DNA from: Naegleria gruberi
Taxonomy: Eukaryota
Strand: one strand, 5' to 3'
DNA: 1,230 nt
NCBI GenBank assembly: GCA_000004985.1
Contig: GG739488.1
Shown: piece after piece, positions 1-1,230 of the stretch
How the letters are laid out: the number at the start of each line of letters is the position of its first letter
Numbering within the stretch: the stretch's first letter is position 1
Translations under genes and position numbers: made by a program
The notes under the pieces: model-generated
Database searches by the model: none
What the model was told of the DNA's origin: nothing
Seen by the model: only the letters and a program-made list of their open reading frames with translations

Positions 1-2
1 TT

Positions 3-107
3 CGTGATGATTGTATGATGATGCATCCTTTAAGTGATGAGGATGCTGATGTCAACTTCTTCGCTTTGGGACATTTTGTTTTGTATTTAAACGAGTTGAT
101 GAATTGA
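3..107 (+). CDS. Possible 3' end of a convergent + strand gene: 34 codons open at the left window edge, RDDCMMMHPLSDEDADVNFFALGHFVLYLNELMN*, with its stop TGA at 105..107.
   Basis: The frame-3 reading from position 3 has no stop until 105..107. Its codons look reasonable (GAT, GCT, TTC, TTG, GGA). It is too short and too unrecognisable to call a product, and it falls below the ORF-track threshold. Confidence 0.2.
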   Translation, partial: RDDCMMMHPLSDEDADVNFFALGHFVLYLNELMN

Positions 108-260
108 CTTGATGGTTAATGAAAAGCAAAACATCAGAGTTTGTAGATGTTTTGGAGGGAATAGAAATCGGACATGGCGTTCTCAATAATCGCAATTATT
201 AAAACCTTATTTCCTACACAAGCGCAGTAAAAACAAAATGATGAATTATTAAGGAACAAC

Positions 261-266
261 TTTATT
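261..266 (-). promoter_or_regulatory. Candidate polyadenylation hexamer AATAAA on the gene strand, overlapping the TAA stop (c-AATAAA-g).
   Basis: The + strand reads tttatt at 261..266, so the minus strand reads ...acc CAA TAA Agt... and contains AATAAA. It is meaningful only if the locus is eukaryotic. The hexamer is also frequent by chance in AT-rich DNA. Confidence 0.25.
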
Positions 267-1230
267 GGGTATCTGCACTAAGATCGGATGTATTGTTATT
301 GATTTTAAGAACGGTCAACTCATCAGCGGAGGAACTTGAACGGCTGACTGGAGGTTTAGTTGGAAGAGTTTCAACAGGATTCTCTTGAAGTTCTTCAATC
401 TTTGGAATTGGATTATCATGATGTTTGTCCTTTAACAGGTATGTTTTCATTTCACCTTTTCCTTTAACATAGATTGATTCTCTTTCTTCAAATTCATATC
501 CCAAATCGAATACTCTTTCATAGGTTGCTCTGGAGATTTGAATTCTTCCTGGAACACCTGTTGATTCCATTCGAGAGGCTGTATTGATTGTATCACCCCA
601 CAAATCGTAAGCAAATTTTTTAGTTCCAATAACACCTCCAACACATGGTCCTGTGTGCATTCCAATTCTCAAATTCACTTCCTTTCCAAATTTAATATTG
701 AAATCTCTCAAGAATGAATAAACTGAGATTGCAAACTTTAACATTCTTTCAGGATGATCAGATGATTTTGAAGAGTGCGTTCCTGAAACTGCAAAGTAAG
801 CATCTCCAATAGTTTTGATCTTGTCAATCAAATATTTCTCAGTCAACTTGTCAAATTCATTCACAATTGTATTCAACATCATCACCAATTGATCTGCTTC
901 CATTCCTGATGACATTTTGGTGAAACCAACCATATCAGAGAAGAAAATCGTAACATCTGCAAACTTTTCTGCAATGAAAGTCTCTCCTTGTTTCAATCTA
1001 TTGGCAACCGGTAATGGCAAAATATTCAACAATAACTCTTCACTCTTCTTCTTTTCCTCACCTAGCAAGGAAGCGTGCTTTTTAACTTGAGTGATGTCCT
1101 TAACAAAGCAAGATAAGATTGGTTTACCTAGGTAGTGACTGATAGAGAGAGAAATCAAAGCAGGGAAAGTTGTCTTGTTCTTTCTCAATCCTGTCACTTC
1201 GAATGTATCAGCAGAAGTATTATTGGTATT
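262..1230 (-). CDS. Class III nucleotidyl cyclase, C-terminal part (signalling helix, catalytic domain, Ser/Asn-rich tail). It is truncated at its 5' end by the window edge. The substrate-specifying residues (Lys/Asp) predict adenylyl cyclase, but the overall sequence is guanylyl-cyclase-like.
   Basis: The minus-strand frame is continuous from 1230 to the TAA at 262..264. Codons upstream of the annotated 'M' translate as ...N T N N T S A D T F E V(GTG) T G L R... with no stop, so the 1197 'start' is an internal GTG. The protein carries the hallmark cyclase motifs VTIFFSDMVGFT, KIKTIGDAYFAVSG, LRIGMHTGPCVGGVIG, YDLWGDTINTASRMESTG and KGKGEMKTYLL. Ungapped alignment, from memory, to the NPR1/GC-A and sGC beta1 catalytic regions matches along the whole domain. 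Confidence 0.9.
   Translation of the reverse strand, partial: NTNNTSADTFEVTGLRKNKTTFPALISLSISHYLGKPILSCFVKDITQVKKHASLLGEEKKKSEELLLNILPLPVANRLKQGETFIAEKFADVTIFFSDMVGFTKMSSGMEADQLVMMLNTIVNEFDKLTEKYLIDKIKTIGDAYFAVSGTHSSKSSDHPERMLKFAISVYSFLRDFNIKFGKEVNLRIGMHTGPCVGGVIGTKKFAYDLWGDTINTASRMESTGVPGRIQISRATYERVFDLGYEFEERESIYVKGKGEMKTYLLKDKHHDNPIPKIEELQENPVETLPTKPPVSRSSSSADELTVLKINNNTSDLSADTQ
265..429 (-). other. Low-complexity Ser/Asn/Pro-rich C-terminal tail, KDKHHDNPIPKIEELQENPVETLPTKPPVSRSSSSADELTVLKINNNTSDLSADTQ.
   Basis: This is the translation of the last 55 codons before the TAA at 262..264. It contains a Ser run and acidic residues at +3 (S-x-x-D/E). It matches no known fold. Confidence 0.6.
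430..972 (-). other. Cyclase catalytic domain (CYCc/PF00211-like), about aa 76-256 of the ORF-track protein. Metal-binding Asp at 934..936 (D88) and 802..804 (D132). Substrate-specifying Lys at 814..816 (K128) and Asp at 604..606 (D198). Transition-state Asn205 and Arg209 lie in DTINTASRME.
   Basis: I mapped each motif to nucleotide coordinates by reverse-complementing the + strand: 934..936 atc gives GAT (Asp), 802..804 atc gives GAT, 814..816 ttt gives AAA (Lys), 604..606 atc gives GAT. The residue roles come from established AC C1/C2 and GC structures. Confidence 0.8.
982..1068 (-). other. Pre-cyclase signalling helix / coiled-coil linker (S-helix), ASLLGEEKKKSEELLLNILPLPVANRLKQGE.
   Basis: It closely resembles the linker just upstream of the catalytic domain in receptor GCs ([26 protein letters not shown]) and sGC beta ([24 protein letters not shown]). 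On the + strand the region is a pyrimidine-rich run, meaning GAA/AAG/GAG codons on the minus strand. Confidence 0.7.

What the first reader, a model, noticed from the sequence alone, without database searches (positions are those of the whole stretch)
604..816. Guanylyl-cyclase-like catalytic domain that carries the adenylyl-cyclase specificity pair (Lys, Asp)
The visible motifs align without gaps to receptor and soluble guanylyl cyclases. The match includes the GC-typical FSDIVGFT, HTGPCV and LPxxVAxxL elements. Against that, the position that is Glu in GCs (KVETIGDAYM) is Lys here (KIKTIGDAYF, codon at 814..816). The position that is Cys in GCs (RYCLFGDTVNTASRMES) is Asp here (AYDLWGDTINTASRMES, codon at 604..606). 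In adenylyl cyclases, Lys and Asp at exactly these positions read the adenine N1/N6. Swapping Glu/Cys for Lys/Asp is the classic mutation pair that switches purine specificity between GCs and ACs. The sequence therefore predicts an enzyme that makes cAMP on a GC scaffold. This architecture has been reported, for example in cyanobacterial CyaG, so it is not new in kind. It is still the most informative feature of the window, and it argues against annotating the gene as a guanylyl cyclase on overall similarity alone.
Basis: partly seen in the sequence, partly recalled or inferred. Interest (0 to 1): 0.55.

Follow-up and report, generated by a model that had tools for sequence, protein, structure and literature searches.

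The report
Ordinary Naegleria PAS-linked adenylyl cyclase fragment
The window holds the 3' end of one of the many signalling cyclase genes of the amoeba Naegleria gruberi, and it looks like a normal cAMP-making enzyme rather than a cGMP-making enzyme with swapped residues.

Summary
On the minus strand, codon 814..816 is Lys139 and codon 604..606 is Asp209. Alignments to solved AC9, Rv1625c and GC-A place them at the two purine-specificity positions (Lys/Asp in ACs, Glu/Cys in GC-A).

The window is a whole 1230-bp Naegleria gruberi scaffold. It carries the 3' part of a gene (CDS 262..1230, open at the 5' end). The encoded protein is: C-terminal half of a PAS domain, a signalling helix, the cyclase transducer element, a class III cyclase domain, and a low-complexity tail. 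All seven canonical catalytic residues are present, so a homodimeric adenylyl cyclase is predicted.

The "GC scaffold" framing is only partly right.
- The motifs cited as GC-typical are shared by class IIIa ACs.
- All 120 nearest homologues carry Lys/Asp.
- Positions that covary with the pair (Ala207, Trp211) are AC-type.
- Bacterial Lys/Asp cyclases are much closer (55% identity, about 245 bits) than any GC (43%, at most 160 bits).
- The best structural match is a mycobacterial AC.

The closest relatives are 1200-1700-aa Naegleria membrane proteins ending in PAS plus a cyclase domain. This is a routine member of a known, hugely expanded family, so interest is low.

The parts
262..1230 (-). 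Partial coding sequence: 322 codons plus a TAA stop at 262..264. It is open at the 5' end, which is the right edge of the window. It encodes the C-terminal part of a Naegleria gruberi PAS-cyclase.
   Evidence: ORF and translation. 100% identical to NCBI 'predicted protein, partial [Naegleria gruberi]' P0001, whose only contig is 1230 bp.
1093..1224 (-). C-terminal half of a PAS domain (residues 3-46). The N-terminal half lies beyond the window edge.
   Evidence: Weak PAS_9 hit at residues 6-48, profile positions 59-103 of 103. Aligns with the full PAS domain of N. fowleri P0121, which scores 55.6 bits for PAS_9. The AF2 model shows three beta strands (7-15, 21-33, 36-45) at pLDDT around 90.
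1042..1092 (-). Signalling (S-)helix linker between the PAS domain and the cyclase (residues 47-63).
   Evidence: The AF2 model has a continuous helix over residues 47-70. It aligns with the helical domain that precedes the catalytic domain in AC9, GC-A and Cya.
982..1041 (-). Cyclase transducer element (handle helix), residues 64-83, EELLLNILPLPVANRLKQGE.
   Evidence: Aligns with AC9 LLRNIIPYHVAEQLK, Rv1625c LLANMLPASIAERLK and [21 protein letters not shown]. Weak HNOBA hit to the C-terminal end of that profile at residues 47-79. L66-L68, I70-P72, A76, L79 and K80 are nearly invariant in 57 homologues. The element is described in the literature cited in PMC7384201.
430..972 (-). Class III nucleotidyl cyclase catalytic domain (residues 87-267).
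   Evidence: PF00211 at E = 1.2e-60. AF2 mean pLDDT 92. Foldseek top hit 5o5k_A with TM 0.93 and rmsd 1.7 Å.
934..936 (-). Asp99, first metal-binding Asp (FFSDMVGFT).
   Evidence: Aligned with the Asp of FADIVGFT in AC9 C1. Asp in 120 of 121 sequences; the remaining one has a gap at this column.
814..816 (-). Lys139, the purine-specificity Lys (adenine-type).
   Evidence: Lys in 121 of 121 sequences.
802..804 (-). Asp143, second metal-binding Asp (TIGDAY).
   Evidence: Aligned with the Asp of TLGDCYY in AC9 C1. Invariant.
667..669 (-). Arg188 (RIGMHTG), the conserved phosphate-contacting Arg.
   Evidence: Invariant in 121 sequences. Aligned with the Arg of MRVGVHTG in AC9 C1. The role is taken from established knowledge of class III cyclases.
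604..606 (-). Asp209, the purine-specificity Asp (adenine-type). It is flanked by AC-type Ala207 (610..612) and Trp211 (598..600).
   Evidence: Asp in 121 of 121 sequences. Covariation of positions 207 and 211 with the specificity pair.
571..585 (-). Asn216 to Arg220 (NTASR), the transition-state-stabilising Asn and Arg.
   Evidence: Both invariant. Aligned with NIASR of AC9 C2.
457..465 (-). Lys256-Gly-Lys258 of the VKGKGEM motif, a conserved C-terminal Lys pair.
   Evidence: K256 is invariant and K258 at least 90% conserved in 57 homologues. Aligned with VKGKGQM of AC9 C2.
265..423 (-). Low-complexity Ser/Asn/Pro-rich C-terminal tail (residues 270-322), not conserved.
   Evidence: Translation. 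No Pfam match. Homologue alignments end near residue 270.
1..261 (.). AT-rich 3' flank of the gene. No RNA family was found here.
   Evidence: GC content 0.33-0.37. The only Rfam hit in the whole window has E = 0.15, is below the gathering threshold, and lies in the coding tail.

Best explanation
The window is the 3' end of a Naegleria gruberi gene for a sensor-linked class III (subclass IIIa-like) adenylyl cyclase.

The encoded C-terminal module is PAS domain, signalling helix, cyclase transducer element, cyclase homology domain. Each chain carries all the canonical catalytic residues:
- metal-binding Asp99 and Asp143;
- phosphate-contacting Arg188;
- adenine-reading Lys139 and Asp209;
- transition-state Asn216 and Arg220.

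The enzyme should therefore work as a head-to-tail homodimer with two symmetric active sites that convert ATP to cAMP. In each site, the metal Asps come from one chain and Lys/Asp/Asn/Arg from the other.

Activity is most likely gated by the PAS domain, whose ligand is unknown. If the gene resembles its nearest relatives, a large polytopic membrane region further upstream also contributes. The signal would pass through the coiled-coil helix and the transducer element to the dimer interface.

**Shown:** the sequence, the residue identities, the homology, the predicted fold, and the family context. **Inferred:** cAMP as product, homodimer catalysis, PAS gating, and the missing N-terminal architecture.
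For: - Coordinates and codons.
- PF00211 at E = 1e-60.
- Residue-level alignments to solved AC9 C1 and C2, to GC-A and to Rv1625c.
- Lys/Asp plus both metal Asps, Arg, Asn and Arg are conserved in all 120 nearest homologues, apart from a gap at the first metal Asp in one sequence.
- In the exhaustive representative search, 44 of the 45 domains at 170 bits or more are Lys/Asp.
- AC-type covarying positions Ala207 and Trp211.
- AF2 model at pLDDT 92, with PAS strands, a long helix, a handle helix and the cyclase fold.
- Foldseek top hit is the Cya/Rv1625c-type AC soluble domain including its helical domain, TM 0.93.
- The nearest relatives are Naegleria fowleri, N. lovaniensis and N. gruberi proteins of 1200-1700 aa with TM segments, TPR_TmcB, PAS and a cyclase domain.
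- Lys and Asp read adenine N1 and N6, and Glu plus Cys/Ser replace them in GCs: PMC7384201.
- Naegleria has about 80 or more putative cyclases with PAS domains and variable numbers of TM helices: PMC9283941 and PMC9928731.
Against: - There is no biochemical evidence for this protein or for any close paralogue.
- Lys/Asp cyclases can retain some GC side-activity. Ma1120 does so at alkaline pH (PMC4215837).
- Specificity is known to depend on more than two residues.
- The gene is truncated by a 1230-bp orphan scaffold, so expression, full length and intactness are unknown.
- Within the window, the PAS hit is below Pfam's threshold (18.3 bits against 27) because only half the domain is present.
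Confidence: 0.85

Rival explanations
1. This is a guanylyl-cyclase-derived scaffold that secondarily acquired the Lys/Asp pair.
For: 43% identity to GC-A against 37% to AC9 C2 or C1 and 41% to Rv1625c. GC-A is second in both the sequence and the fold rankings. There is a weak HNOBA-end hit.
Against: Every near relative has Lys/Asp: 120 of 120, and 44 of the 45 domains at 170 bits or more. Bacterial Lys/Asp cyclases score about 245 bits and 55% identity, against at most 160 bits for any Glu-type domain. Positions 207 and 211 are AC-type. The cited motifs are shared by ACs. The simplest reading is that Lys/Asp is ancestral in this clade.
Confidence: 0.07
2. The enzyme is a guanylyl or dual-specificity cyclase despite carrying Lys/Asp.
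For: Specificity is achieved during catalysis and depends on further residues. The Lys/Asp enzyme Ma1120 shows residual GC activity at alkaline pH.
Against: All four discriminating positions examined (139, 207, 209, 211) are AC-type. In ACs, Lys and Asp hydrogen-bond adenine N1 and N6. From my own knowledge, no characterised Lys/Asp class IIIa enzyme is primarily a GC.
Confidence: 0.04
3. The fragment is a non-functional gene remnant or an assembly orphan, such as a decayed paralogue or a collapsed or unplaced allele, rather than part of a working gene.
For: The whole scaffold is only 1230 bp and cuts the gene within the PAS domain. The family has about 80-100 paralogues, which makes assembly fragmentation and pseudogenes plausible.
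Against: There are 322 uninterrupted codons, with every invariant catalytic and structural residue of the family retained. The fragment is 70% identical to a full-length N. fowleri protein across the PAS, CTE and cyclase regions. The AF2 model has pLDDT 92.
Confidence: 0.08

Closest known systems
Naegleria TM/TPR_TmcB-PAS-cyclase paralogues, e.g. N. fowleri FDP41_007173 (XP_044558499, P0121, 1685 aa) and N. gruberi NAEGRDRAFT_78958 'FM179' (P0122)
   Same: 66-70% identity across the PAS half, signalling helix, CTE and cyclase domain. The catalytic signature DKDRDNR is identical, and the module sits at the C-terminus in the same way.
   Different: Those proteins are full length, with about 10-12 hydrophobic segments and a TPR_TmcB region upstream. 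The window stops inside the PAS domain, so it cannot be seen whether it shares that N-terminus. None of these proteins has been characterised biochemically.
Cyanobacterial and other bacterial class IIIa Lys/Asp adenylyl cyclases (REC-, PAS/GAF-, DUF3365- or HAMP-linked; the CyaG-like group)
   Same: 50-57% identity over the CTE plus cyclase domain. Same Lys/Asp pair, HTGP motif and DLWGD motif. Sensor, helix, CTE, cyclase organisation.
   Different: They are prokaryotic and have different sensor domains. It is cited only through reference lists, so 'CyaG-like' is a lead and not a tested membership.
Mycobacterial Rv1625c / Cya (PDB 4p2f, 5o5k, 7yzk)
   Same: Best single-domain sequence match in the PDB (166 bits) and best fold match (TM 0.93, rmsd 1.7 Å), including the helical domain. 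It is a homodimeric Lys/Asp AC with a CTE.
   Different: 41% identity. Rv1625c has a 6-TM anchor and no PAS domain.
Receptor guanylyl cyclase GC-A / NPR1 (PDB 9bcv)
   Same: 43% identity over the CTE plus cyclase domain. FSD(I/M)VGFT, HTGP and TASRMES are shared.
   Different: GC-A has Glu, Arg, Cys and Phe where the window has Lys139, Ala207, Asp209 and Trp211. Its regulatory domains also differ: a kinase-homology domain rather than PAS.
Mammalian membrane adenylyl cyclases (AC9, AC8, AC5; C1 and C2 domains)
   Same: The window combines in one chain the C1-type metal Asps and the C2-type Lys, Asp, Asn and Arg. The CTE precedes the domain as it does in tmACs.
   Different: tmACs are pseudo-heterodimers of two degenerate domains with a single active site. 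Identity is 37%.

Membership tests
Class III nucleotidyl cyclase catalytic domain (PF00211) | Profile match above the curated threshold | tested here: met
   204.7 bits against a cut-off of 21.9, E = 1.2e-60, profile positions 3-182 of 183.
Class III nucleotidyl cyclase catalytic domain (PF00211) | Two metal-binding Asp residues, plus a transition-state Asn and Arg | tested here: met
   Asp99, Asp143, Asn216 and Arg220 align with the corresponding AC9 C1 and C2 residues. They are invariant in homologues.
Class III nucleotidyl cyclase catalytic domain (PF00211) | Cyclase fold | tested here: met
   AF2 pLDDT 92. Foldseek hits to 5o5k, GC-A, RhGC and AC C2 at E of 1e-17 or below, with TM up to 0.94 normalised to target length.
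Adenylyl (ATP-specific) cyclases within class III | Lys and Asp (or Thr) at the two purine-contact positions | tested here: met
   Lys139 and Asp209 align with the AC9 C2 and Rv1625c Lys and Asp. The rule is stated in PMC7384201.
Adenylyl (ATP-specific) cyclases within class III | Measured formation of cAMP from ATP, with preference over GTP | not testable with these tools
   Needs an enzyme assay.
Guanylyl cyclases | Glu at the first purine-contact position and Cys, Ser or another small residue at the second | tested here: not met
   The window has Lys139 and Asp209 where GC-A has Glu and Cys. It also has Ala207 and Trp211, where Glu-type domains mostly have Arg and Phe.
Class IIIa/b cyclases with a cyclase transducer element | A conserved CTE segment of about 19 residues immediately N-terminal of the catalytic domain | tested here: met
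   EELLLNILPLPVANRLKQGE aligns with the equivalent segments of AC9, Rv1625c and GC-A. It is nearly invariant in homologues. The element is described in work cited in PMC7384201.
PAS-domain sensor proteins | A complete PAS fold upstream of the effector domain | tested here: inconclusive
   Only the C-terminal half is in the window: PAS_9 scores 18.3 bits against a cut-off of 27, profile positions 59-103. The homologous region of P0121 scores 55.6 bits as a full PAS domain. AF2 shows three beta strands.
CyaG-type cyanobacterial adenylyl cyclase | Direct sequence relationship to Arthrospira CyaG, and its demonstrated Lys/Asp to Glu/Cys convertibility | not tested
   The CyaG sequence and paper were not available. 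Only the citation was seen. Related cyanobacterial Lys/Asp cyclases are 50-57% identical.
Naegleria TM/TPR_TmcB-PAS-cyclase family | An N-terminal polytopic membrane region with TPR_TmcB repeats | not testable with these tools
   The scaffold ends inside the PAS domain. The feature is seen only in relatives.

The most novel reading that the evidence does not exclude
The fragment may be the catalytic end of a ~1600-aa heterolobosean receptor-cyclase. In this reading, a TmcB-like polytopic membrane domain and a PAS domain jointly gate a cAMP-forming module of bacterial (cyanobacterial-type class IIIa) origin. That would be a receptor-cyclase architecture with no characterised member, and its membrane domain might sense or transport an unknown ligand.
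Probability: 0.3. Interest if true: 0.35.

Novelty: new member of a known kind. Interest (0 to 1): 0.12.

Why it matters
The practical value is for annotation. The product is best named a PAS-domain adenylate cyclase fragment, not a guanylate cyclase. The deposited partial model can also be extended by 44 codons.

The finding illustrates that class IIIa adenylyl cyclases resemble animal GCs in their common motifs. Substrate calls should therefore rest on the Lys/Asp against Glu/Cys positions and on their covarying neighbours.

It adds nothing new about mechanism. The wider Naegleria family, with about 80 or more cyclases, many of them with large membrane domains of unknown function, remains biochemically unexplored. 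That family is the more interesting target.

Tried and rejected
- **Rfam scan of the window at a permissive threshold.** It gave only a chance-level lncRNA hit (E = 0.15, below the gathering threshold) inside the coding tail. I conclude there is no RNA element.
- **Genomic context of the paralogue P0002.** The look-up of encoding contigs found no record, so no context was obtained.
- **The Naegleria genome paper (Cell 2010).** It is not held in the library. I recall a figure of 108 cyclases but have not used it as evidence. I used the counts from PMC9283941 and PMC9928731 instead.
- **The CyaG paper and sequence.** Neither was obtainable. Only citations were found.
- **LOV/BLUF photoreceptor cyclases (NgPAC).** Naegleria does have BLUF-domain cyclases. 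The sensor here matches PAS, not BLUF, so this is not an NgPAC.
- **Bacterial contamination.** I rejected this. The best hits are Naegleria proteins at 59-72% identity, and GC content is about 35%.
- **Prokaryotic promoter and terminator scans.** Not run, because the sequence is eukaryotic.
- **Deep phylogeny.** Not attempted, because class III deep nodes are poorly resolved. I used per-domain score ranking and covarying positions instead.
Full report
**What is in the window**

The 1230-bp window has about 35% GC. Its one long open frame is on the minus strand, from 262 to 1230. That frame has 322 codons, ends in TAA at 262..264, and is still open at the right-hand edge.

The translation is 100% identical to the NCBI entry 'predicted protein, partial [Naegleria gruberi]' (P0001). 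The only contig recorded for P0001 is 1230 bp long, so the window is that whole orphan scaffold.

Pfam finds the class III cyclase domain PF00211 at residues 87-267 (E = 1.2e-60). It also finds a sub-threshold match to the last 45 positions of PAS_9 at residues 6-48, and a weak match to the C-terminal end of HNOBA at residues 47-79.

**Check of the observation**

Codon 814..816 is AAA on the coding strand. It encodes Lys139, in KIKTIGDAYF. Codon 604..606 is GAT and encodes Asp209, in AYDLWGDTINTASRMES. FFSDMVGFT, HTGPCV and LPLPVANRL are all present.

- phmmer against solved structures aligns Lys139 and Asp209 with the C2 Lys and Asp of AC9 (IEKIKTIGATYM; LLYDIWGDTVNIASRM).
- The same search aligns Asp99 and Asp143 with the two metal-binding Asps of AC9 C1 (FADIVGFT; TLGDCYY).
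- For the GC comparison I used the GC-A catalytic region, after confirming that my copy is identical to PDB 9bcv_A 794-1029.
- BLASTP against it gives 43% identity. It pairs Lys139 with Glu (KVETIGDAYM) and Asp209 with Cys (RYCLFGD). There are three gap positions, all outside the motifs.

**Is it a GC scaffold?**

Several independent tests say no, or only in a loose sense.

1. **The cited motifs are not GC-specific.**
   - AC9 C1 has FADIVGFT and VHTGTV.
   - The helix before AC9 C2 reads NIIPYHVAEQLK.
   - Rv1625c reads NMLPASIAERLK and ATGPVVAGVVG.
   - Lys/Asp cyanobacterial cyclases have IHTGPV.
   - LPxxVAxxL belongs to the cyclase transducer element, the 'handle' helix that class IIIa/b ACs and GCs share (work cited in PMC7384201).

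2. **Identity over the CTE plus catalytic domain**:

   | Compared with | Identity |
   |---|---|
   | Naegleria paralogues | 62-66% |
   | Cyanobacterial Lys/Asp cyclases | 55-56% |
   | GC-A | 43% |
   | Rv1625c | 41% |
   | AC9 C1 or C2 | 37% |

3. **The nearest homologues all carry the AC residues.** All 120 have Lys/Asp, and they also share the two metal Asps (one sequence has a gap at the first), Arg188, Asn216 and Arg220.

4. **The exhaustive search agrees.** I ranked individual domains from a search of 1.84 billion cluster representatives.
   - All 45 domains at 170 bits or more carry Asp at the second position, and 44 of them carry Lys at the first.
   - The single exception is a N. 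gruberi paralogue (P0183) with Glu/Asp.
   - A bacterial HAMP-linked AC scores 244 bits.
   - The first true Glu/Cys domain is a nematode receptor GC at 155 bits.

5. **Covarying positions are AC-type.** I examined 229 related domains.
   - Lys/Asp domains have Trp two residues after the Asp in 111 of 121 cases.
   - Glu-type domains have Phe there, and mostly Arg two residues before.
   - The window has Trp211 and Ala207.

6. **Structure gives the same order.** An AlphaFold2 model built with 57 homologues has mean pLDDT 92. Its best Foldseek match in the PDB is the mycobacterial Cya soluble domain 5o5k (TM 0.93, rmsd 1.7 Å). GC-A comes next. Per-domain phmmer scores show the same order: 166 bits against 160.

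In summary, the domain belongs to a Lys/Asp clade of class IIIa cyclases. That clade sits about as far from animal GCs as Rv1625c does. The resemblance to GCs is the general class IIIa resemblance.

**Anatomy and likely mechanism**

The model shows the following elements in order:
- three beta strands (residues 7-45), which are the last strands of a PAS domain;
- a long helix (residues 47-70);
- a short handle helix (residues 73-80);
- the cyclase fold.

One chain contains every canonical catalytic residue. By analogy with Rv1625c-type enzymes, it should form a head-to-tail homodimer with two active sites. Asp99, Asp143 and Arg188 would come from one chain. Lys139, Asp209, Asn216 and Arg220 would come from the other.

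Lys and Asp hydrogen-bond adenine N1 and N6 in ACs (PMC7384201). cAMP is therefore the predicted product. Regulation by the PAS domain through the signalling helix and the CTE is inferred from the architecture. The PAS ligand is unknown.

**Context**

The closest relatives are proteins of 1200-1700 aa from Naegleria fowleri, N. lovaniensis and N. gruberi. The best is N. fowleri FDP41_007173, at 70% identity across the whole visible module.

These proteins have the following layout:
- about 7 hydrophobic segments;
- a TPR_TmcB region (PF25474);
- 3-4 more hydrophobic segments;
- a PAS domain and a C-terminal cyclase domain.

The window gene is therefore probably the last fifth of such a gene. 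Shorter models of 365-390 aa also exist (P0002, P0003). At least P0002 begins inside its PAS domain, so it may be a truncated model.

The literature already records the family's size. N. fowleri has 80 putative cyclases with varied TM and PAS combinations, 62 of them expressed (PMC9283941). The genus pangenome has at least 81 (PMC9928731). Only the BLUF-type NgPACs have been shown to be active ACs (PMC5608697).

**Caveats and rivals**

- Lys/Asp does not strictly exclude GTP turnover. Ma1120 has residual GC activity at alkaline pH (PMC4215837), and specificity involves further residues. I give a GC or dual-specificity reading about 4%.
- A secondary reversion from a GC ancestor is not formally excluded without a phylogeny, but nothing favours it (about 7%).
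- The tiny scaffold leaves open that this is a gene remnant or an assembly orphan (about 8%). Against that, the frame is intact, all invariant residues are retained, and identity to a full-length orthologue-like protein is 70%.

**Verdict**

This is an uncharacterised but routine member of a known kind, the sensor-linked class IIIa adenylyl cyclases, from a genome known to hold dozens of them. Interest is low (0.12). The most novel reading still open concerns the unseen N-terminus, a TmcB-like membrane receptor-cyclase, rather than the specificity pair.

Noticed in passing
window 1099..1230 (minus strand): The deposited partial protein model P0001 starts at DITQVKK, which is residue 45 of the open frame. 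The 44 codons upstream are still coding. They align with the PAS domain of N. fowleri P0121 and fold as beta strands at pLDDT around 90. The public model is therefore 44 residues too short.
   Followed up: partly
relatives P0121, P0122, P0124, P0125, P0126 (outside the window): The nearest relatives are 1200-1700-aa polytopic membrane proteins. They have a TPR_TmcB (PF25474) region between two groups of hydrophobic segments, followed by a PAS domain and a cyclase domain. One N. gruberi paralogue carries the UniProt name 'FM179'. The function of the large membrane part is unknown.
   Followed up: partly
P0183 (N. gruberi XP_002673218, residues 929-1191): A paralogue in the same family has Glu at the specificity-Lys position but keeps the Asp. 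It also has Thr in place of the second metal-binding Asp (signature DETRDNR). It may be a degenerate or functionally altered cyclase domain.
   Followed up: no
window 3..107 (+ strand, frame 3): A frame is open from the left edge of the window to a stop at 105..107. It has 34 sense codons (RDDCMMMHPLSDEDADVNFFALGHFVLYLNELMN). It could be the tail of a convergently transcribed neighbour, or it could be chance. It is too short to search.
   Followed up: no
window 598..612 (minus strand; residues 207-211): Across 229 related cyclase domains, the residues two before and two after the specificity Asp/Cys covary with the specificity pair. Lys/Asp domains have Trp at +2. Glu-type domains have Phe at +2 and mostly Arg at -2. 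These positions are useful extra markers for calling substrate.
   Followed up: yes
window 265..423 (minus strand; residues 270-322): A low-complexity Ser/Asn/Pro-rich C-terminal tail follows the catalytic domain. It has no counterpart in the homologues.
   Followed up: no
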